From: a virus
UHGV virus genome: UHGV-0198005
Reading direction: 5' to 3' (one strand)
Length of the DNA stretch: 12,292 bases
The position numbers and the translations under genes were made by a program. The notes below the pieces were generated by a model. It saw only the letters and a list, made by a program, of their open reading frames with translations, searched no databases and was not told the origin of the DNA. Shown here in pieces: positions 1,631 to 12,292 of this stretch (the first letter of the stretch is position 1; the number at the start of each line of letters is the position of its first letter).

Positions 1631-1725
1631 TAAAAACGGTGTATACCGTTTAAAAACGGTGGGAACTGTTTTTACCCATATCCGATGATTTACCGTATTT
1701 GTCACCGGAATACACCGGATTCACA
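1631..1725 (+). promoter_or_regulatory. Operator/promoter region upstream of alpA: palindrome AAACGGT-GTAT-ACCGTTT, direct repeat TAAAAACGGTG x2, direct repeat CACCGGA x2
   Basis: Repeats read directly in the sequence (1631-1661 and 1703-1719), in the intergenic region ahead of the alpA start. Confidence 0.35.
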
Positions 1726-3918: not shown

Positions 3919-4218
3919 ATGAAACTTAAATATTCTGGCTTAACTGCCAGTGGCAACACTCACCCTAAATTTACGCGCGGCGATATTTACCGCGACCAGT
4001 ACGGCGGCACGGTAATGATTAAGGGCGTGGCGGGACGGTGCGTAACTTACCGCCGTGAAGGTTACGAATATGATTGCGTGATGCCTGTTTATCAGTTCCG
4101 GCGTGATTTTTCTCTGGTACAGACCGCGCCGCATAACGTGCCCACCAGCAACGCCAGGGCACGGGCAAACATCCAGAAGCTGAAAACCATGATTAACGGA
4201 TTCAGGGGTAAAAAATGA
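3919..4218 (+). CDS. Hypothetical protein (99 aa)
   Basis: ORF with GGAG upstream; stop overlaps the primase start (ATGA). Confidence 0.6.
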   Translation: MKLKYSGLTASGNTHPKFTRGDIYRDQYGGTVMIKGVAGRCVTYRREGYEYDCVMPVYQFRRDFSLVQTAPHNVPTSNARARANIQKLKTMINGFRGKK

Positions 4219-5969
4219 AACTGGCACCGAACGTAAAACAGCAGTCACGCGGCATAAAACACAAAGGAACAGAAGTCATTATTTTTGCGGGTAGTGATGC
4301 CTGGGCACACGCGAAACAATGGCAGGAACATGATGCGCGTATGGCCGGAGATAATGAGCCTCCTGTGTGGCTTGGGGAGCAGCAGTTATCAGAACTGGAT
4401 AAGCTGCAAATTGTGCCGGAAGGCAGAAAATCCGTGCGCATATTCAGGGCCGGATATCTTGCGCCAGTAATGATAAAGGCGATTGGTCAGAAGCTGGCGG
4501 CGGCAGGCGTACAGGATGCAAATTTTTACCCTGATGGTATGCACGGTCAGAAGGTGGAGAACTGGCGCGAATATCTGGCCCGTGAGCGCCAGAATCTTTC
4601 TGATGGTCTGGTCATTGAGCTTCCGGTAAAGCAAAAGGCGCAACTTTCGCAGATGGCGGACAGTGAGCGCGCGCAGCTGCTTGCCGATCGCTTTGATGGC
4701 GTTTGCGTACATCCTGAAAGTGAAATCGTTCACGTATGGCGCGGCGGGGTATGGTGTCCGGTCAGCACAATGGAACTTAGCCGCGAAATGGTGGCGATCT
4801 ATTCAGAGCACAGGGCCACTTTCAGCAAGCGCGTAATCAATAACGCCGTGGAAGCGTTAAAAGTTATTGCCGAACCAATGGGCGAGCCGTCCGGCGATTT
4901 GCTGCCGTTCGCCAATGGTGCGCTTGACCTGAAAACGGGGGAATTTTCCCCGCACACGCCGGAGAACTGGATCACCACGCACAACGGCATTGAGTACACG
5001 CCACCAGCACCAGGGGAGAACATCCGCGATAACGCGCCAAACTTTCATAAATGGCTTGAGCACGCAGCCGGAAAAGACCCGCGCAAGATGATGCGTATAT
5101 GTGCCGCGCTGTACATGATTATGGCGAACCGGTACGACTGGCAGATGTTTATTGAGGCCACCGGAGACGGCGGGAGCGGTAAAAGTACATTCACACACAT
5201 AGCCAGCCTTCTGGCAGGGAAACAAAACACGGTAAGCGCTGAAATGACATCGCTTGATGATGCTGGTGGGCGTGCGCAGGTTGTCGGGAGTCGTCTTATC
5301 GTCCTGGCAGACCAGCCGAAATATACAGGCGAAGGAACGGGCATCAAGAAAATCACGGGCGGCGACCCCGTGGAAATTAACCCGAAATATGAAAAGCGTT
5401 TTACGGCGGTAATCAGGGCGGTGGTGCTGGCAACCAATAACAATCCGATGATATTCACCGAACGGGCCGGAGGTGTGGCACGTCGTCGGGTGATATTCCG
5501 GTTCGATAACATCGTAAGCGAGGCAGAAAAAGACAGGGAGCTACCGGAAAAGATCGCGGCTGAAATCCCTGTCATTATCCGCCGCTTGCTGGCGAACTTT
5601 GCCGACCCTGAAAAGGCACGGGCTTTACTCATTGAACAGCGTGACGGTGATGAAGCACTGGCAATAAAGCAACAGACGGATCCGGTTATTGAGTTTTGCC
5701 AGTTCCTGAATTTTCTGGAGGAAGCACGCGGCCTGATGATGGGCGGCGGTGGCGATTCAGTGAAGTACACGACCAGAAACAGCCTTTACCGCGTCTATCT
5801 GGCGTTTATGGCGTACGCAGGCAGGAGCAAACCGCTAAACGTAAATGACTTTGGCAAGGCTATGAAGCCAGCCGCGAAAGTTTACGGACATGAATATATT
5901 ACGCGGAAAGTTAAAGGAGTAACGCAGACTAACGCAATAACAACAGACGATTGCGACGCGTTTTTATAA
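4215..5969 (+). CDS. Replication initiator: primase/helicase with phage-plasmid primase P4-family (D5_N-like) region and P-loop NTPase domain
   Basis: 584-aa ORF. Walker A GDGGSGKST (EATGDGGSGKSTFTHIASLLAG) and a putative Walker B LIVLAD; upstream NGALDLKTGEFSPHTPENWIT resembles the D5_N/primase-C motif. Immediately followed by an iteron array. Confidence 0.85.
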   Translation: MKLAPNVKQQSRGIKHKGTEVIIFAGSDAWAHAKQWQEHDARMAGDNEPPVWLGEQQLSELDKLQIVPEGRKSVRIFRAGYLAPVMIKAIGQKLAAAGVQDANFYPDGMHGQKVENWREYLARERQNLSDGLVIELPVKQKAQLSQMADSERAQLLADRFDGVCVHPESEIVHVWRGGVWCPVSTMELSREMVAIYSEHRATFSKRVINNAVEALKVIAEPMGEPSGDLLPFANGALDLKTGEFSPHTPENWITTHNGIEYTPPAPGENIRDNAPNFHKWLEHAAGKDPRKMMRICAALYMIMANRYDWQMFIEATGDGGSGKSTFTHIASLLAGKQNTVSAEMTSLDDAGGRAQVVGSRLIVLADQPKYTGEGTGIKKITGGDPVEINPKYEKRFTAVIRAVVLATNNNPMIFTERAGGVARRRVIFRFDNIVSEAEKDRELPEKIAAEIPVIIRRLLANFADPEKARALLIEQRDGDEALAIKQQTDPVIEFCQFLNFLEEARGLMMGGGGDSVKYTTRNSLYRVYLAFMAYAGRSKPLNVNDFGKAMKPAAKVYGHEYITRKVKGVTQTNAITTDDCDAFL

Positions 5970-5982
5970 TTTGTTGCAATGG

Positions 5983-6208
5983 CTGTCTACCCTGTCTACC
6001 TGAGTAAAGAAAAATACATTTAATTCAGTGCATTAAGTTAGGTAGATAGCCTTTTTTTACTGTCTACCCACTATCTACCCTCTCTACCTGATTTTACCTG
6101 AATCAGACAGGGAGGTAGACACGGGGTAGATAGTGGATAAAAGCACTCTACCCCGCTGAAAGCCGCGCCATTACTGGCATGAGGGCCACTAAGGTAGATA
6201 GGTAGACA
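5983..6208. repeat. Iteron-type replication origin: at least 11 copies of an 8-9 bp motif (C)TGTCTACC / GGTAGACA(G) and variants in both orientations around an AT-rich core
   Basis: Copies read directly at 5983-5991, 5992-6000, 6041-6049, 6060-6068, 6071-6079, 6081-6088, 6114-6121, 6125-6133, 6146-6155, 6193-6200, 6201-6208; AT-rich stretch 6001-6040. Placement directly 3' of the primase gene matches P4/PICI ori organisation. Confidence 0.7.
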
Positions 6209-7369: not shown

Positions 7370-7576
7370 ATGGCTGAAGAGAAAAAAGGCGGTGTTTCGG
7401 TGTACATAAGCCCCGACATCGTGAAGGCGCTCAAGGAACGCCACCAGCAGAACGTAAAAGCAGGCATTGCGGCAGGACTTGATCCGCTGGCGATGGTTGA
7501 GCCGTCAACAGGCTGGCAGGTACGCTCCTATTTACGCGCGGCGCTGGGCATAAATCAGACTCATGGGGGTGAATAA
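7370..7576 (+). CDS. Hypothetical protein (68 aa), first gene of the head operon; possibly a small RHH-like regulator or scaffold/size-determination factor
   Basis: Strong ribosome-binding site; stop overlaps the capsid gene start (TAATG). VSVYISPDIVKALKERH resembles an RHH strand-helix pattern (weak inference). Confidence 0.55.
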   Translation: MAEEKKGGVSVYISPDIVKALKERHQQNVKAGIAAGLDPLAMVEPSTGWQVRSYLRAALGINQTHGGE

Positions 7577-8631
7577 TGGCAGTCAAAGCAATGGCACTTA
7601 ACACACACCAGCTTTTCGCGTACCTGAATCGCGAGGATATTGCGGAATTTAAATTTAGTCCGCTGTTTACCGCGCTGTTTTTCCCGAACGTGGCGACATT
7701 CAACACGCAAAACATCATGCTGGATACCCTGGACATTGAAGAAGTCACCATGTCGGCGTTTTGTTCGCCTATGGTGGGTAGCCAGGTTCAGCGCGATAAA
7801 GGGTACGAAACCAGCACGATTAAACCTGGCTACATGAAGCCAAAGCACGAAATCGATCCAACGAAAACCATCATGCGCATGGCTGGAGAAGATCCGGCAC
7901 AGCTTAACGACCCTACCTATCGCCGTATGCGCCTGATTACTGGCAATATGCGCCGCCAGATAAACGCCATAAAAGCGCGCGTGGAATGGCTGGCGGTAAA
8001 TGCGGTAACGACCGGAAAAAACATCATTGAGGGCGAAGGCATAGAGCGCTATGAAATCGACTGGAAGATACCGGAAAAAAACATCATAGAGCAGGCCGAC
8101 GGGAAAAAATGGTCAGAGCAGGACAAAGAAACCCACGATCCAATCTATGATATCGAACTATACGCCGATCAGGCTGGTTGCCCCGCAAACGTCATGATTA
8201 TGGGCGTTGAGGTATGGCGAACGTTACGCAGCTTTAAAAAATTCCGTGAGCTGTACGATCTTTCCCGTGGTTCAGAGTCCGCCGCAGAGCTGGCCTGTAA
8301 AAACCTGGGCGAAGTGGTGAGCTTTAAAGGCTATCTGGGCGATATTGCCCTTATCGTCTATTCCGGCAAATACACTGACAGCGACGGCACAGAAAAATAT
8401 TTCCTTGATCCTGATTTGCTGGTCCTGGGCAACACCAACAACAAAGGGCTGGTGGCCTATGGTGCGATTATGGATCAGGAAGCGGTAAGAACAGGCGCAA
8501 CGCAAAACATGTACTACCCGAAAAACTGGATTGAGGACGGCGATCCGGCGATTGAGTACGTGCAGACGCACAGCGCACCGCAGCCGGTTCCGGCAGATAT
8601 TCGCAAATTTGTTACCGTCAAAATTGCTTAA
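7576..8631 (+). CDS. Major capsid protein, lambda gpE-like (HK97 fold)
   Basis: 351-aa ORF aligning along its length with recalled lambda gpE: FKFSPLFTALFF / FKFDPLFLRLFF; PGYMKPKHEIDP / PGYVKPKHEVNP; EDPAQLNDPTYRRMR / EDPQNLADPAYRRRR; RGSESAAELACKNLGEVVSFKGYLGDIALIVYSGKY / RGSNSELETAVKDLGKAVSYKGMYGDVAIVVYSGQY; YYPKNW..GDPA...SAP. Confidence 0.92.
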   Translation: MAVKAMALNTHQLFAYLNREDIAEFKFSPLFTALFFPNVATFNTQNIMLDTLDIEEVTMSAFCSPMVGSQVQRDKGYETSTIKPGYMKPKHEIDPTKTIMRMAGEDPAQLNDPTYRRMRLITGNMRRQINAIKARVEWLAVNAVTTGKNIIEGEGIERYEIDWKIPEKNIIEQADGKKWSEQDKETHDPIYDIELYADQAGCPANVMIMGVEVWRTLRSFKKFRELYDLSRGSESAAELACKNLGEVVSFKGYLGDIALIVYSGKYTDSDGTEKYFLDPDLLVLGNTNNKGLVAYGAIMDQEAVRTGATQNMYYPKNWIEDGDPAIEYVQTHSAPQPVPADIRKFVTVKIA

Positions 8632-9432: not shown

Positions 9433-9609
9433 GCGGGTCCTTCCTGGAATTATGGCCCGTTACGGGGCGGCGACCTCGCGGTTTTTCGCTATTTATGAGC
9501 TTTTTCAGGGGGGTGGTGGTGGTTTTGTTGTTTGCTCTATCTTTATGAATGAAAAGGGAAAGATGCAAACAATACACCAACCTGAAGCAGTAATTAAGTT
9601 GGTGTATTA
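9433..9609 (+). other. Lambda-type cohesive end site cos1 (cosQ-cosN-cosB); cosN 12-nt overhang GGGCGGCGACCT at 9465-9476; cosB diverged from lambda
   Basis: TTACGGGGCGGCGACCTCGCGGTTTTTCGCTATTTATGA matches the recalled lambda cos junction (ACGGGGCGGCGACCTCGCGGGTTTTCGCTATTTATGAAAA) almost base for base, then diverges. Lies directly upstream of the Nu1-like gene as in lambda. Confidence 0.8.
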
Positions 9610-10152
9610 ATGAAATCGCACCTGATGAACAAAAAAAACATGGCGAAAAGCTGCCGTGTAAGTGCGACAGCGTTCGACAAGTGGGGAGTGACTCCCGTTG
9701 AACGTAAAGGCCGTGAGGCGTTTTACGATGTTGCCAGCGTGATAGACAATAGGGTTAACAATGCAATTAGCCAGCTTACAAACGACAAAGGCGATATTGA
9801 TGATGATGAACTCTTACGAGTCAGGATCAGATTACTGACAGCACAGGCGGAGGCGCAGGAACTTAAAAACGAGCGCGATCGCGGTGACGTGATTGATACT
9901 GAGTTTTGCCTGTACGCGCTTTCAAAGCTGGCGAGTCAGATTTCATCAATCATGGACAGCCTCCCGCTTACTATGCAAAGGAGCTTCCCACAGATTACCC
10001 CCGCCATGCTGGATAGGCTTAAAAGGGAAGTGGTTAAAGCCTGTAATGCCAGTGCCAGAGTTGCCGACAACCTCCCACAGATACTGGCTGATTACTTGAA
10101 AGAAACAACCGGAAACGTACCGGAAAAGTTGCTACAGAAGAAAGGCGAGTAA
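9610..10152 (+). CDS. Terminase small subunit homolog, lambda Nu1-like (candidate Rpp-type packaging-redirection protein); true start may be the ATG at 9625
   Basis: LTAQAEAQELKNERDRGDVIDTEFCLYALSKLASQISSIMDSLPLTMQRSFPQ aligns with recalled lambda Nu1 LTRAQADAQELKNARDSAEVVETAFCTFVLSRIAGEIASILDGLPLSVQRRFPE; N-terminus MNKKNMAKS.. parallels Nu1 MEVNKKQLADIF. No large-terminase gene follows. Confidence 0.85.
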   Translation: MKSHLMNKKNMAKSCRVSATAFDKWGVTPVERKGREAFYDVASVIDNRVNNAISQLTNDKGDIDDDELLRVRIRLLTAQAEAQELKNERDRGDVIDTEFCLYALSKLASQISSIMDSLPLTMQRSFPQITPAMLDRLKREVVKACNASARVADNLPQILADYLKETTGNVPEKLLQKKGE

Positions 10153-10159
10153 CAGACGC

Positions 10160-10375
10160 GCAATTATTGAACAAAACTGAGAAACGACATGAAAGCGTCA
10201 TAAATCGCCATTTTAGATGATTACCGTGTCGTTTCTTTTTATTGTGTATCTATTTAAAAACAAATAGTTATGTTCGAGAAGTACCGACATGCTTTTTCCA
10301 GAAAAATTTTCATAAACAGATAAAAACCGCGAGGTCGCCGCCCCGTAACGGGTCCATAATTCCAGGAAGGACCCG
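10160..10375 (-). other. Second lambda-type cos site (cos2) in inverted orientation; cosN at 10332-10343 on the minus strand, with lambda-like cosB elements (R-site-like GAAACGACA / TGTCGTTTC, TTTATGAAAATTTT)
   Basis: Reverse complement of 10322-10375 is CGGGTCCTTCCTGGAATTATGGACCCGTTACGGGGCGGCGACCTCGCGGTTTTT, identical to cos1 apart from one indel. Continuing on the minus strand, TTTATGAAAATTTTTCTGG, CATAACTATTTGTTTTTAAATAGA and AAAGAAACGACAC...TGTCGTTTCTC parallel recalled lambda cosB (R3/I1/R2/R1 region). Confidence 0.7.
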
Positions 10376-10408
10376 ACGACACCAGACAATCAGAACGATG
10401 GGTGCACA

Positions 10409-10582
10409 ATGACAGAAGCCGAAATACTGGGATTAATCCGCCGTGCTGGTGGAATCAGCCAGCAGACTGACGAACAGGCCACGCAGCCGGACAGCGTGAC
10501 AGCCGAAAATTATGCGCGTGTTGTTGCTGAGGTGATGCGCCGTGATGGTATCCAGCTTAATGATGTGGATATGCGTTCTTGA
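10409..10582 (+). CDS. Hypothetical small ORF (57 aa), weakly supported
   Basis: ATG-initiated ORF below the ORF-track size cutoff with only a weak GGTG upstream; acidic, helical composition. May be a remnant. Confidence 0.25.
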   Translation: MTEAEILGLIRRAGGISQQTDEQATQPDSVTAENYARVVAEVMRRDGIQLNDVDMRS

Positions 10583-10664
10583 AATGCTGGCCTACAATCG
10601 CCGCGTGGCACTGTATCGGGAAACGGAGAAAATTACATACCACTGGAAGAAGCCGGAGCGGTTG

Positions 10665-10890
10665 CGGCGGTAACTGGTTGATATTTTCGAAATTCGCCAG
10701 CGGCGAACATCGGGGAAACCAGCCTAACCCGTTGATATTTTCGGGAACCTCAAATTGAGGAGGTCGGAAACATAACCCGTCATATTCTGGATGCTGATAA
10801 TTACCACGCAGCCCATTAAGGCCTAACCCGTTGATTCTTTCGGAAACAGCCATTGGCGTAATCCGGCGCGGTAACTTGCTGAACTTAAAG
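10665..10890. repeat. Degenerate ~50-bp tandem repeat array (about 5 units), each unit starting TAAC(C/T)(C/G)GTTGATATTTTCG-like
   Basis: Unit starts at ~10669 (TAACTGGTTGATATTTTCG), 10724 (TAACCCGTTGATATTTTCG), 10774 (TAACCCGTCATATTCTGG), 10825 (TAACCCGTTGATTCTTTCG), 10871 (TAACTTGCTGAACTTAAAG); spacing 46-55 bp. Confidence 0.5.
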
Positions 10891-11263
10891 CAAAGCGCAA
10901 AATTGCGCTGGCTGGTGGGCATGATGCCGATATGGTGATCCCCATAACGGAAATATCCACCAGCACGGCAACGGCAGAATAGCCACAACACAGAAAAACC
11001 ACGAATATGGGGTTTTTGTTATGGCATGGGCATGATGACCGCCCCTGCTCTGAATGGTGGAAATCACCACGCAGATCATCCACCAGCTTCGTTTTTATAA
11101 ATTAAACATCCGGGAAAATCCGACCCTGAATTGTGCATTTTTTCAGCAAATCATTTTAGTTATACGTTTGGTTATACGGTTTAAAAGTTGAATCATATAC
11201 ATTATTTTAAATCATGAAGTTACACGCTCAATTAAACTACTCTCGTGGACCAAAAATCCCAAG

Positions 11264-11292
11264 AAAACCAACCTATTGCGGTTGGTTTTTTT
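11264..11292. terminator. Intrinsic terminator hairpin (AAAACCAACC-TATTGC-GGTTGGTTTT + T-run), strongest on the plus strand, usable bidirectionally
   Basis: 10-bp perfect stem, 6-nt loop, T7 on the plus strand; located ~70 bp beyond the 3' end of the minus-strand pseudogene. Confidence 0.55.
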
Positions 11293-11360
11293 ATATCTGC
11301 ATTTAATTCGATAAACAGACAGCGACACATCACGGCCTGTTTATTTTCTGTTATCAGAAC

Positions 11361-12292
11361 GTCCAGACTACACCCGCCTGAGTTGTGCTGCTTTCTTCAC
11401 GGGAGAAACGGCTGTCGATACCAAGCGTTAGCCCCGTCAATGTTTGCTCAAAGCCAGCGCCTGCATCAGTGGTCACGTTGTTGCGGCTGTTAATTGCCGA
11501 ACTCCACATCGCCGCCCTTTACGCTACCAAGACGCTCACGCACGGTGTCCAGTTCTGCATCAAATACCAGCGGTTGTGCTGCCGCCATATTCAGCACATC
11601 CGTGGTTGAAGGGGGCATTTGTGCGCGATTCTCTGCGAGACTCCAGCTATGGTTGCCATTATCCAGCAAGGTATATTCATACGTACTGATATCAACAACG
11701 CCTCCGGCATTGCCCAACGTAAATGCCGCATCACCGCGCCCGTTGTTACCAGTGTAAGGTTATCTCCTGCTGCCGGCCTGGCACCGGTGTCCGTCACGAA
11801 TATTTTGAAATCACCTGTTGCTTTAACCTCCAGTAGCCCTCCCTTTTCTATAACGGCAAAGACGGCAATCCCATCTTTTTCAACAATTAAGCGCCCGCCT
11901 TTAATCGTGGGATCATTCGCCGCGCCATAAACCTGTAGCACTCCATTATTGATCGTAGTCTGGTTTACCGCGCCACCCATTTGAACAATTTGATAACCAT
12001 CATTTAATACTGAGTATTCTGCGGTGCCATTTATTTCAATGTACTGATATCCCCCGTTAATTTCAGTATTACTACTTACACCAAATTCTTATATATGCTG
12101 TTCTCCGCCAGGATTGATTTTCGTATTATTGGCGGCCCTACAAACCAGCTGGATATCTTTTTCCAGGACAACACCATCAACTGTCTCACCATACTCAACA
12201 GTTGATGCCAATGCTATGGGCGAATATAACGCTGTAGCCACCAGAACAGATATTGCGGAACGACAAAGAGAAACAGAACCAGATTGGTGCAT
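11361..12292 (-). pseudogene. Decayed autotransporter-type adhesin gene remnant (signal peptide + passenger fragment + linker + last ~44 aa of the beta-barrel), with an in-frame stop and at least two frameshifts; may continue beyond the window edge
   Basis: Minus-strand translation from 12292 gives a signal-peptide-like N-terminus (MHQSGSVSLCRSAISVLVATALYSPIALA), an in-frame TAA at 12089-12091, passenger-like repeats (NNGVLQVYGAANDPTIKGG...), a frame change near 11740-11760 into ...GGVVDISTYEYTLLDNGNHSWSL...TVRERLG..., a stop at 11490, then a third frame ending ...AGVVWTF* (aromatic C-terminus typical of outer-membrane barrels) at ~11361. Confidence 0.45.

What the first reader, a model, noticed from the sequence alone, without database searches (positions are those of the whole stretch)
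10665..10890. Degenerate ~50-bp tandem repeat array near the island's right end
Five units sharing a TAACCCGTTGATATTTTCG-like head recur every 46-55 bp in a region with no convincing ORF. Candidates are integrase arm-type sites flanking attR, binding sites for a packaging or replication protein, or the relic of a repetitive coding sequence. It is not CRISPR-like (units are degenerate and the intervening sequence is itself related).
Basis: seen in the sequence. Interest (0 to 1): 0.5.

Follow-up and report, generated by a model that had tools for sequence, protein, structure and literature searches.

The report
Satellite-island array of IHF-site hairpin repeats
The repeat is real: it is a non-coding array, found at the right end of many E. 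coli phage-satellite islands, in which each ~50-bp unit joins a textbook binding site for the host DNA-bending protein IHF to a short hairpin-forming palindrome; it is not an integrase, packaging or coding element, and its function has not been tested.

Summary
Heads lie at 10671, 10725, 10773, 10824 and 10872 (spacing 54/48/51/48): three full units and two degenerate or variant ones.

The window is an EcCICFT073-type PICI at tRNA-Pro, 98% identical to E. coli Nissle 1917.

- cos sites at 9465-9476 and 10332-10343
- probable origin iterons at 5983-6130
- integrase arm-type 12-mers at 11155-11178
- attR core at 11240-11254

Each head is an exact match to the IHF consensus (YAANNNNYTGATW). A palindrome is centred 29 bp downstream. 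Its arms differ between units but stay complementary through compensatory changes.

The array starts at the stop codon of a conserved 93-aa gene of unknown function, which is frameshifted in this window. It recurs, with 1-7 shuffled units, in islands with different integrases, primases and packaging modules. Array-like DNA is in 981 of 5,426 complete E. coli genomes and in no phage record.

Best reading (confidence 0.4): a satellite-private analogue of BIME/RIB extragenic repeats, bound by IHF, acting as a structural or 3'-end boundary element. IHF binding and function are inferred, not shown. It matches no Rfam family or the one degenerate REP pattern tried, and I found no description of it.

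The parts
10409..10673 (+). Small conserved gene (93 aa when intact, phrog_1561, function unknown). Its stop codon TAA (10671-10673) is the first three bases of head 1. In this window a 17-bp deletion after 10572 shifts the frame and gives a 57-aa ORF ending at 10582.
   Evidence: in a gene-anchored sample a head sits on the stop codon in 29 of 35 loci
10671..10724 (+). Unit 1 (54 bp): head 10671-10689, which is the IHF consensus on the minus strand (TATCAACCAGTTA); palindrome TTCGCCAGCGGCGAA at 10693-10707, centred at +29
10725..10772 (+). Unit 2 (48 bp): head 10725-10743 (TATCAACGGGTTA on the minus strand); palindrome CCTCAAATTGAGG at 10748-10760, centred at +29; outer helix CGG/TCG around a 3x3 purine-rich internal loop
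10773..10823 (+). Unit 3 (51 bp), degenerate: head-like TAACCCGTCATATTCTGG, followed by a copy of a second repeat family (10786-10816, repeated at 11049-11079)
   Evidence: family D2; E about 2 only
10824..10871 (+). Unit 4 (48 bp): head 10824-10842 (AATCAACGGGTTA on the minus strand); short palindrome GCCATTGGC at 10849-10857, centred at +29; outer helix CGGA/TCCG
10872..10910 (+). Unit 5: variant head TAACTTGCTGAACTTAAAG, which does not match the IHF consensus, with palindrome AGCGCAAAATTGCGCT at 10894-10909, centred at +29.5. This unit subtype recurs in other islands.
   Evidence: (D4)
10948..10963 (-). Inverted head-like sequence (CTGGTGGATATTTCCG on the minus strand, 88% complementary to head 1). 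It overlaps a minus-strand Chi site.
   Evidence: (I2)
10994..11017 (.). A/T-stemmed hairpin AAAAACC..GGTTTTT flanked by A and T runs; candidate two-way terminator after the array. Related islands carry compensated versions (AAAAACAAC..GTTGTTTTT).
   Evidence: read from the sequence, not called by the terminator scan
11155..11178 (+). Context, not part of the array: two tandem 12-mers TTTAGTTATACG/TTTGGTTATACG, the probable integrase arm-type sites. Four more copies lie between attL and int in the Nissle copy.
11210..11222 (+). Context: IHF-like site AATCATGAAGTTA (one mismatch) after an A/T-rich run, between the arm-type sites and the attR core. Exact-consensus counterparts sit at the same place in related islands.
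11240..11254 (+). Context: attR core CTCTCGTGGACCAAA, a copy of the 3' end of tRNA-Pro; right boundary of the island
9465..9476 (+). Context: cosN GGGCGGCGACCT of the plus-oriented lambda-type cos, upstream of the Nu1-like (Rpp-type) gene 9610-10152
   Evidence: PMC9026076
10332..10343 (-). Context: cosN of a second, inverted lambda-type cos, 328 bp left of the array
   Evidence: PMC6092414

Best explanation
The array is a non-coding, satellite-specific repeat element. Each unit of about 48-54 bp has a conserved frame. This is a full IHF-type site (YAANNNNYTGATW, then a T-rich run, then an AAA tract), a dyad element centred 29 bp from the unit start, and a purine-rich tail (AGGYCGG). I propose that host IHF binds the heads and bends the DNA sharply at about 50-bp intervals. 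I also propose that the dyads form hairpins, in the transcript of the island's rightward operon and/or as cruciforms in supercoiled DNA. Together they would make a structural boundary at the 3' end of the island's single long transcription unit. That could stabilise or delimit the transcript and insulate the att region and the neighbouring host genes from transcription and supercoiling. This is the role proposed for chromosomal BIME-1/RIB elements. Units are gained, lost and swapped between islands by recombination at the conserved heads.

Shown here: the anatomy, the consensus match, the compensatory changes, the distribution, and the independence from integrase, cos and ori. Inferred: IHF binding, hairpin formation in the cell, and the boundary function.
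For: IHF consensus:
- Three of the four exact WATCARNNNNTTR matches in the 12.3-kb window are the three good heads, all in one orientation, against 1.06 expected for the whole window. The consensus is as given in PMC10380432.
- Across related islands 32 of 39 distinct heads keep the strict consensus.
- Position by position, all nine specified consensus positions are invariant or vary only as the consensus allows (T/C at Y, A/T at W). Three of the four N positions vary freely.
- A conserved AAA lies 8-10 bp from the W, roughly where the lambda H' site has its A-tract (the H' position is from my own knowledge).

Dyad element:
- Its centre is at +28 to +30 in 70 of 74 distinct units, despite unrelated arm sequences.
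- Eight of 12 symmetric pairs show changes on both sides. 73% of cells are paired, against 43% or less when the partner is slid, and no shuffle out of 500 reaches the observed values.
- Differences between islands are concentrated in the palindrome arms inside an otherwise identical frame.

Position and distribution:
- The array sits directly after the last gene of the plus-strand gene series. It is anchored on that gene's stop codon in 29 of 35 gene-anchored loci.
- Copy number is 1-7.
- It recurs with three packaging modules, diverged primases and integrases of 21-100% identity. That points to a host factor or a general structural role, not an island-specific protein.
- Unit 1 is 100% identical in an island whose adjacent gene is only 79% identical at the DNA level.

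Precedent: BIME-1 linkers carry an IHF site between palindromic units. RIBs lie at the 3' ends of transcription units, vary in copy number between strains, and are credited with terminator, mRNA-stabilising and supercoil-insulating roles (PMC3333891).
Against: - No binding or expression data exist. A consensus match alone predicts IHF occupancy only moderately.
- Several positions outside the IHF consensus are also invariant (C at +3, T at +14/+15, C at +17), so another factor or an RNA-level constraint may act on the head.
- The unit spacing (48, 51, 54 bp) is not a constant number of helical turns.
- The strong link to the 93-aa gene hints at a dedicated partner protein.
- In a few islands a terminator-like hairpin separates the gene from the array (L015, L030). 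The array is therefore not always in the operon's 3' UTR.
- One head subtype, including unit 5 here, does not fit the IHF consensus.
- RNA folding of the array is only modestly better than shuffled sequence (z = -2.3 plus strand, -1.7 minus strand).
Confidence: 0.4

Rival explanations
1. RNA-level element. The array is the structured 3' UTR of the island's late operon. Each unit is a hairpin (3-bp helix, 3x3 purine internal loop, 5-6-bp helix, small loop) preceded by a U-rich linker. It would protect the mRNA from 3' exonucleases, or be cut at the AU-rich heads into small RNAs that bind a protein or act as regulators. This can coexist with IHF binding at the DNA level.
For: Compensatory changes in both helices, with a conserved non-complementary purine-rich internal loop (AAA/ARG), are typical of RNA hairpins. 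The array has the same orientation as the upstream operon in every locus, directly after the last stop codon. G-T pairs slightly outnumber A-C mismatches on the plus strand (36 vs 26; 15 vs 6). The plus-strand fold z-score is -2.3. About 80% of chromosomal REP clusters are transcribed and one yields a functional RNA (PMC4550694).
Against: This does not explain why the heads match the IHF consensus, including its degenerate positions. About 45% of the palindromes in these regions are perfect to the centre with 1-2-nt 'loops', which RNA hairpins do not need. The G-T excess is weak and the units are not independent. There is no Rfam match. In some islands a terminator-like hairpin precedes the array. 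No expression data.
Confidence: 0.2
2. Binding array for the adjacent 93-aa protein. The small three-helix basic protein encoded immediately upstream binds the conserved heads and builds a nucleoprotein complex, as sopC follows sopB in F or parS follows parB in P1.
For: There is tight physical linkage. The first head overlaps the gene's stop codon in 29 of 35 gene-anchored loci, and 53 of 57 arrays found by pattern have the gene directly upstream. The protein's C-terminal half is rich in Arg/Lys and highly conserved. Gene and array travel together between islands that otherwise differ.
Against: The protein has no recognisable DNA-binding domain and no family annotation (Pfam, NCBIfam, PADLOC none; PHROG of unknown function). 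The AlphaFold model is of low confidence (pLDDT 66) and has no significant PDB match. Arrays persist intact where the gene is frameshifted (this window) or deleted (L034, L065). The island has no partition ATPase.
Confidence: 0.12
3. No function of its own. The units are by-products of slippage, unequal crossing-over and palindrome-correcting template switching in a recombination-prone spacer between the packaging module and the att/cargo region. They persist by hitch-hiking.
For: The arrangement is mosaic, with copy number 1-7 and shuffled order. Degenerate units occur, such as units 3 and 5 here. The whole 600-bp right-end region is about 8-fold enriched in short palindromes of many kinds (325 observed vs 40 expected), which could reflect a mutational process.
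Against: The heads are far better conserved than the neighbouring protein-coding gene: 100% against 79% DNA identity. Conservation follows the IHF consensus position by position. The dyad centre is fixed to within about 1 bp across unrelated arm sequences. The element is kept in islands at many chromosomal sites, in 981 of 5,426 complete genomes.
Confidence: 0.15
4. Integrase arm-type sites of the attP P arm.
For: The array is on the attR side of the island, and tyrosine integrases do use repeated arm sites together with IHF.
Against: A different repeat fills that role. TTTAGTTATACG occurs twice at 11155-11178 and four times beside int, with an IHF-like site and the core within the next 100 bp. 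The heads are shared by islands with integrases of 21-38% identity and with different arm repeats (GGTGTAGTTAAT, GTGTGGTCAGTT). The array-to-arm distance ranges from 240 to 766 bp. No head copy lies on the int side.
Confidence: 0.03
5. Packaging signal (cosB-like binding sites for small terminase or Rpp) or replication iterons.
For: The array is 328 bp from the inverted cos site and lies downstream of the Nu1-like gene.
Against: Both cos sites are complete lambda-type sites elsewhere (9465-9476, 10332-10343). The published PICI cosB lies within about 65 bp of cosN on the rpp side (PMC9026076). The array lies on the cosQ side of the inverted cos. The same array follows P27-type TerS plus TerL modules and a third TerS/capsid module, neither of which has the Nu1-like (Rpp) gene. 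Iterons of a different sequence follow the primase gene, and primases of array-bearing islands differ by up to 50%.
Confidence: 0.03
6. Relic of a repetitive protein-coding sequence.
For: All four spacings in this window are multiples of three, and a 144-aa minus-strand ORF spans the array.
Against: The ORF has no family match. An open frame across the array is found in only 2 of 44 related arrays. Every head carries TAA and TGA in two plus-strand frames. Many unit lengths elsewhere are not multiples of three. The units are not significantly similar to the upstream gene's 3' end.
Confidence: 0.02

Closest known systems
BIME-1 / RIB (RIP) elements of the E. coli chromosome: REP palindromic units flanking an IHF-binding linker
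   Same: Extragenic and placed at the 3' end of a transcription unit. They combine palindromic, hairpin-capable units with an IHF consensus site. They are tandem and mosaic, with copy number varying between strains (PMC3333891).
   Different: No match to the one degenerate REP pattern tried. Here one IHF site is followed by one small dyad of variable sequence, not two conserved inverted REPs around the site. The element is seen here only at the right ends of phage-satellite islands, not dispersed in hundreds of chromosomal copies. No RAYT transposase is present.
IHF sites of lambda-type attP arms and cosB (H1/H2/H', I1)
   Same: The same consensus. The element sits in a mobile element that uses a tyrosine integrase and lambda-type cos sites.
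   Different: Those sites are single and lie at fixed short distances from the core or from cosN. This island has its own att-proximal IHF-like site (11210-11222). The array lies 350-580 bp from the attR core and 328 bp from the nearer cosN, at variable distance from att in other islands. Published PICI cosB regions lack an IHF site (PMC9026076).
Plasmid centromere arrays directly after the partition gene (F sopC: twelve 43-bp repeats, each with a short inverted repeat; P1 parS with an IHF site) - from my own knowledge
   Same: Tandem repeats of about 45-50 bp, each containing a short inverted repeat, starting right after the stop of a small upstream gene. IHF is involved in the P1 case.
   Different: In centromeres the inverted repeat is the same in every unit because one protein reads it. 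Here the dyad arms differ from unit to unit. There is no ParA-type ATPase. The 93-aa protein has no ParB/SopB, RHH or other recognisable DNA-binding fold.
REP325 cluster and its nucleoid-associated RNA naRNA4 (PMC4550694)
   Same: A cluster of repeats with cruciform-capable palindromes that is transcribed and works with a nucleoid protein of the HU/IHF family.
   Different: Different sequence and a chromosomal location. The partner there is HU, which binds structure, not a consensus. No evidence here for an RNA product.
CRISPR leader-repeat junction of type I-E (IHF site next to a palindromic repeat) - from my own knowledge
   Same: An IHF site at a fixed distance from a short palindrome. The unit 1 palindrome shares 11 of 12 bases (CGCCAGCGGxGA) with the E. 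coli type I-E repeat.
   Different: The repeats are not identical, there are no unique spacers of constant length, and there are no cas genes. The similarity is confined to one unit type and is weak (12 of 2000 shuffles do as well). Treated as coincidence.

Membership tests
IHF binding site | Match to the consensus WATCAANNNNTTR (WATCAR variant), with variation confined to the degenerate positions | tested here: met
   Exact matches at 10671, 10725 and 10824. 32 of 39 distinct heads in related islands match. Per-position conservation follows the consensus.
IHF binding site | A/T-rich element on the WATCAA side of the site | tested here: inconclusive
   A T-run lies directly next to TTGATW, and a conserved AAA lies 8-10 bp away. 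The position is similar but not identical to the lambda H' A-tract (my recollection of H').
IHF binding site | Specific binding and bending by IHF protein | not testable with these tools
   Needs a gel shift, footprint or ChIP.
REP / BIME (BIME-1, RIB/RIP) | Palindromic units with the REP consensus | tested here: not met
   The one degenerate REP pattern tried, written from memory, has no match within 3 mismatches anywhere in the window. The dyad arms here are variable and unrelated to REP.
REP / BIME (BIME-1, RIB/RIP) | IHF site placed between two inverted REP copies | tested here: not met
   Each unit has one IHF-type head followed by one dyad. No flanking inverted pair of conserved palindromes is present.
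REP / BIME (BIME-1, RIB/RIP) | Extragenic position at the 3' end of a transcription unit, with copy number variable between strains | tested here: met
   The array starts at the last stop codon of the plus-strand gene series. There are 1-7 units per island.
REP / BIME (BIME-1, RIB/RIP) | Hundreds of copies dispersed over the chromosome | tested here: not met
   1-4 places per genome. All 57 pattern-found arrays lie at island right ends, 53 of them next to the satellite-island small gene and 4 without it.
Tyrosine-integrase arm-type sites | The same short repeat on both arms of attP, close to the core and to int | tested here: not met
   No head copy lies on the int side. TTTAGTTATACG has that distribution instead.
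Tyrosine-integrase arm-type sites | The repeat sequence changes with the integrase type, and its distance to the core is fixed | tested here: not met
   The same heads occur with integrases of 21-100% identity. The distance to the arm repeats is 240-766 bp.
Lambda-type cosB / terminase-binding R sites | Within about 50-150 bp of cosN on the terminase-gene side, and co-occurring with a Nu1/Rpp-type protein | tested here: not met
   The array is 328 bp from the nearer cosN and on its cosQ side. It is present in islands with P27-type TerS/TerL that lack the Nu1-like (Rpp) gene.
Replication-origin iterons | Next to the initiator gene, and co-varying with the initiator | tested here: not met
   Other iterons lie at 5983-6130 beside the primase gene. 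The array is shared by islands whose primases are 48-100% identical.
CRISPR array | Near-identical repeats, unique spacers of constant length, cas genes or a leader | tested here: not met
   The repeats are degenerate, the intervening sequence is itself a variable dyad, and no cas genes are present.
Type III toxin-antitoxin RNA repeats (ToxI-like) | Tandem repeat array next to a ToxN/AbiQ-type endoribonuclease gene | tested here: not met
   The neighbouring gene is a 93-aa helical protein with no PADLOC, Pfam or NCBIfam match. No gene follows the array before attR.
Known RNA families (Rfam 15) | Covariance-model match | tested here: not met
   Only chance-level hits (E of 0.35 or more) in 9500-12292, none overlapping the array.

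The most novel reading that the evidence does not exclude
The array is an active weapon or tool of the satellite, not passive architecture. The version I find most attractive is a high-affinity IHF sink. After induction the island replicates, and each copy brings 3-7 consensus IHF sites. Lambda-type helper phages need IHF at site I1 of cosB for efficient terminase assembly. Published PICI cosB regions lack an IHF site and use Rpp-TerS instead (PMC9026076). Draining free IHF would then hurt helper packaging, and helper integration or excision, more than the satellite's own.

A second version is that the units (IHF site plus a core-like dyad with variable arms) are recombination or decoy sites. 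They might drive modular exchange of the right-end cargo region, or soak up dimeric helper regulators of different specificities.
Probability: 0.08. Interest if true: 0.75.

Novelty: new variant of a known kind. Interest (0 to 1): 0.45.

Why it matters
EcCICFT073-type PICIs are the model phage satellites of Gram-negative bacteria. Their cos sites, Rpp protein and regulators have been dissected. I found no description of the conserved non-coding module between the packaging genes and attR: full-text searches for four 15-base substrings of the commonest heads (both strands) returned nothing. The module is common, with array-like DNA in 18% of complete E. coli genomes, including the probiotic Nissle 1917 and O157:H7 strains. 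It moves between islands independently of integrase, replication and packaging modules. It also carries an unusually clean signature of a host factor (IHF) coupled to structure-conserving, sequence-diverging dyads. If IHF binds it, it is a new cis-acting part of satellite biology. It would matter for engineering PICIs as delivery vehicles and for understanding insulation of islands from host genes. It would also be a second, independently evolved case of the IHF-plus-palindrome design known from BIMEs, whose function is itself still debated. If it does nothing, it is still a useful marker of PICI right ends.

Tried and rejected
- Tandem Repeats Finder did not detect the array.
- Rfam at a permissive E-value gave nothing relevant.
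- The promoter/terminator scan found nothing convincing inside the array, only weak terminator-like hairpins at its two edges (10659-10676 plus strand, 10894-10909 minus strand).
- The 93-aa protein has no Pfam, NCBIfam or PADLOC family and only a PHROG of unknown function. AlphaFold gave a three-helix model of low confidence with no significant PDB neighbour. A large protein search returned only unnamed E. coli homologues of 86% identity or more in the listed top 120.
- The genome-contig scan with the single protein returned one locus. The profile scan of viral contigs kept only close relatives. I therefore could not test conservation of the heads outside Escherichia/Shigella.
- No match in the phage collection by DNA or protein, and only four partial matches in plasmids.
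- I first placed attR at the 16-bp repeat TTTTAGTTATACGTTT. The empty site in CFT073 showed the true core is the tRNA-Pro 3' end, and that the 12-mers are arm sites.
- The idea that the upstream gene's 3' end is a 'unit 0' was not supported. The best alignment was reached by 15 of 500 shuffles.
- The unit 1 palindrome resembles the type I-E CRISPR repeat only weakly.
- G-T versus A-C mismatch counts and RNA fold z-scores did not separate an RNA hairpin from a DNA palindrome.
- Literature searches for PICI with IHF, PICI with sRNA, and the head sequence found no description of the array.
- I compared the dyads from memory with lambda/434/P22 operators, LexA, FNR, matS, dif, boxB and integron attC sites. 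None fitted, and none of these comparisons was a formal test.
Full report
**What the window is.** The 12,292-bp window is 98% identical to a chromosomal island of E. coli Nissle 1917, ATCC 25922 and relatives. The island lies between tRNA-Pro/yejM and the yejO-narP region. All its genes read left to right:
- integrase, 1-1242
- a small helix-turn-helix regulator
- a D5/P4-type primase, 4215-5969, followed by short iterons at 5983-6130
- SSB
- a lambda E-type capsid protein, 7576-8631
- a gpD-type decoration protein
- a Nu1-like small-terminase/Rpp-type protein, 9610-10152

This is the gene set of the EcCICFT073 family of phage-inducible chromosomal islands (PICIs) (PMC6092414, PMC6739421). Two perfect lambda cosN sequences flank the Nu1-like gene in inverted orientation, at 9465-9476 (+) and 10332-10343 (-). 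They have lambda-like flanks and correspond to the published cos1/cos2 pair.

**The island's right end.** CFT073 has an empty site at this tRNA-Pro locus. Comparing it with the occupied site shows that the att core is the 3' end of the tRNA. The attR core is CTCTCGTGGACCAAA at 11240-11254. Just inside it lie an IHF-like site (11210-11222) and two tandem 12-mers, TTTAGTTATACG/TTTGGTTATACG (11155-11178). The same 12-mer occurs four more times between attL and int in the Nissle copy and nowhere else. These are the expected arm-type integrase sites. My first placement of attR at that 12-mer repeat was wrong, and I corrected it.

**The observation.** Heads start at 10671, 10725, 10773, 10824 and 10872, with spacing 54/48/51/48. 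Three are near-identical and exceed chance clearly (5 hits against 0.35 expected, three with no mismatch). The third is degenerate. The fifth is a recurrent variant head. An inverted head-like copy lies at 10948-10963. Tandem Repeats Finder misses the array. The region is not coding. Each head puts TAA and TGA in two plus-strand frames. The 144-aa minus-strand ORF has no family match, and an open frame across the array is seen in only 2 of 44 related arrays.

**Anatomy of a unit.** The head is an exact match to the IHF consensus when read on the minus strand: TATCAACCAGTTA, TATCAACGGGTTA and AATCAACGGGTTA fit WATCAR-NNNN-TTR. These are three of only four exact matches in the whole window (consensus as in PMC10380432).

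I collected related arrays in several ways. A pattern scan of IMG/VR gave 65 loci. Of these, 57 are true arrays and 8 are isolated chance hits. I also fetched six loci from complete E. coli and Shigella genomes and a gene-anchored set. Among 39 distinct heads, 32 keep the strict consensus. The per-position profile follows it. The nine specified positions are invariant or vary only T/C at the Y position and A/T at the W position. Three of the four N positions vary freely. A conserved AAA follows 8-10 bp away.

After the head comes a dyad. In 70 of 74 distinct units that have one, its centre lies 28-30 bp from the unit start. The arm sequences, however, are unrelated: CCTCA/TGAGG, TCGCC/GGCGA, CCCCC/GGGGG, CAGCC/GGCTG, GCGCA/TGCGC, CCACAG/CTGTGG and others. 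On an ungapped alignment of 16 distinct 48-nt units, 8 of 12 symmetric pairs show changes on both sides. 73% of cells are paired, against 43% or less when the partner column is slid, and no shuffle out of 500 reaches the observed values. The pattern is a 3-bp outer helix (CGG/YCG), a conserved non-complementary 3x3 purine-rich loop, and a 5-6-bp inner helix.

Between islands, the differences are concentrated in the dyad arms inside an otherwise identical frame. In this window the dyads are at 10693-10707, 10748-10760, 10849-10857 and 10894-10909.

**Context and distribution.** The array always begins at the stop codon of a 93-aa gene (phrog_1561), and the TAA of head 1 is that stop. This holds in 29 of 35 loci collected through the gene and not through the head, so it is not a sampling artefact. 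In this window the gene is broken by a 17-bp deletion after 10572, while the array is 100% identical to that of Nissle. In a few islands the gene is missing and the array remains.

The protein has no family annotation. Its model is a low-confidence three-helix fold with no structural neighbour.

The gene-plus-array module sits at the right end of islands that differ in several ways:
- three different packaging modules: lambda-type capsid/decoration with or without the Nu1-like gene, P27-type TerS plus TerL, and another TerS plus capsid
- primases of 48-100% identity
- integrases of 21-25%, 38% or 98-100% identity to this one
- different chromosomal sites: phoQ, clpS, thiM, tRNA-Pro

Copy number is 1-7. 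The distance from the last head to the integrase-specific arm repeats ranges from 240 to 766 bp. Units are shuffled. One island has a gene only 79% identical in DNA but a 100% identical unit 1. Another has a 99% identical gene but a different unit 1.

Array-like DNA is in 981 of 5,426 complete E. coli genomes, and 138 have this exact arrangement. There are four partial matches in plasmids and none in 50,697 phage records. The whole 600 bp downstream of the gene is about eight-fold enriched in short palindromes in these islands (325 against 40 expected). In this window alone the enrichment is modest (3 against 0.8).

**What it is not.**
- *Arm-type integrase sites.* Another repeat has that distribution. 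The heads ignore integrase type, and the distance to the core is not fixed.
- *cosB.* Both cos sites lie elsewhere. The published PICI cosB lies within about 65 bp of cosN on the rpp side (PMC9026076). The array also follows non-lambda terminase modules.
- *Origin iterons.* A different set follows the primase gene, and the array ignores primase type.
- *A coding relic.* No frame is conserved.
- *CRISPR, a type III antitoxin array, a known RNA family or a REP/BIME member*.

**Most likely mechanism.** The only feature that accounts for the head's conservation pattern position by position is IHF. A host factor also explains why the module works in islands with unrelated integrases, primases and terminases.

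The dyads are kept by compensatory change, so what is selected is the ability to pair, not a sequence. Different arms in neighbouring units would also prevent mis-pairing between units. I could not decide whether the pairing acts in RNA or as DNA cruciforms. The conserved asymmetric purine loop and a slight G-T excess favour RNA. The many palindromes that are perfect to the centre, and the similar fold scores of the two strands, favour DNA.

The closest known design is the BIME-1/RIB element. It has palindromic units plus an IHF site, lies at the 3' ends of transcription units, and varies in copy number. It is credited with terminator, mRNA-stabilising and supercoil-insulating roles (PMC3333891). 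A REP cluster that works with HU through an RNA is also known (PMC4550694).

I therefore propose an IHF-bound, hairpin-bearing boundary element at the end of the island's single long operon, evolving by recombination at the heads. Shown: anatomy, consensus, covariation, distribution and exclusions. Inferred: IHF occupancy, hairpin formation in the cell and the boundary role. Confidence is about 0.4. The RNA-level and DNA-level versions are not mutually exclusive.

**Alternatives still open.** These are a purely RNA-level 3' UTR element (0.2), a binding array for the adjacent 93-aa protein in the manner of sopC or parS (0.12), and a functionless recombination by-product (0.15).

The boldest reading not excluded is that the array acts against the helper phage, for example as an IHF sink. 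Lambda-type helper cosB needs IHF, while published PICI cosB regions have no IHF site (PMC9026076). I give that about 0.08.

**Novelty.** The island family is well known. I found no description of this array in the PICI papers read or by sequence search of the literature. It fails the membership tests for REP/BIME while working on the same design. I rate it a new variant of a known kind and of moderate interest.

Noticed in passing
window, 13 sites: 1163, 2076, 2938(-), 4142(-), 5001(-), 5262, 6561, 7441(-), 8448, 10445, 10911, 10957(-), 11080(-): The recombination hotspot Chi (GCTGGTGG) occurs 13 times in 12.3 kb on both strands, against 0.34 expected from shuffles. That is about one per 950 bp, well above what I recall as the E. 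coli average of about one per 4.5-5 kb. CCACCAGC is present in nearly every related island's right-end region. This suggests selection for protection of the linear or concatemeric satellite DNA from RecBCD.
   Followed up: partly
window 9465-9476 (+) and 10332-10343 (-): Two complete lambda-type cos sites in inverted orientation flank the Nu1-like gene. About 55 bp around each cosN form an inverted repeat. The minus-oriented site retains lambda-like R-site relics (GTCGTTTC motifs near 10185-10230). These match the published cos1/cos2 of EcCICFT073.
   Followed up: partly
window 10572/10573: A 17-bp deletion (GCGCAACATACGGATCC in Nissle 1917) frameshifts the conserved 93-aa gene in this window. 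The ORF ends at 10582 after 57 codons. The downstream array is unchanged.
   Followed up: yes
window 11155-11178; L001 1516-1571: TTTAGTTATACG 12-mers lie on both sides of att: two on the attR side, and two direct plus two inverted beside int. They are probable integrase arm-type sites. Other islands carry different 12-mers at the same place (GGTGTAGTTAAT, GTGTGGTCAGTT).
   Followed up: yes
window 10786-10816 and 11049-11079: A second repeat family (CTGRATGSTSATAATKACCACGCAG) has a short dyad (GGTGATAATCACC or GGTCATAATGACC in relatives). In some islands a version reads CTGAATAATCATTATGATTACGCAG, which resembles a Fur box. That is my reading and is untested.
   Followed up: no
related loci, e.g. 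L002 2570-3300, L003 2570-3200, L008 and L011 right ends: In related islands the whole 600-800 bp between the small gene and attR is a mosaic of many different short palindromes (about 8-fold over chance), plus GTGAC repeats at about 10-bp spacing in some. The head array is only the most regular part of a larger structured non-coding region.
   Followed up: partly
window 5983-6130: Three pairs of short tandem repeats (CTGTCTACC, ACTATCTACCC, AGACACGGAGGT) lie immediately 3' of the primase gene, where PICI replication origins are reported to lie (PMC6092414).
   Followed up: no
window 10693-10707 (unit 1 dyad): The unit 1 palindrome shares CGCCAGCGGxGA (11 of 12 bases) with the E. coli type I-E CRISPR repeat, and GGGGAAACC follows a few bases later (compare GGGGATAAACC). 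12 of 2000 shuffles align as well, so this is probably chance.
   Followed up: partly
window 1631-1671: Two tandem 20-bp copies of TAAAAACGGTGGAAACCGTT lie upstream of the small helix-turn-helix regulator gene (1738-1944). This is possibly an operator. Not examined.
   Followed up: no
L070 12072-12359 and neighbouring array: In one viral contig a head array without the 93-aa gene lies next to a 95-aa ORF (MIRDRKAEDLESKGLYRRAAARWAEIMM...). I recall this motif as PerC/Pch-like, but I ran no family scan on it. Arrays can therefore border regulatory cargo genes.
   Followed up: no
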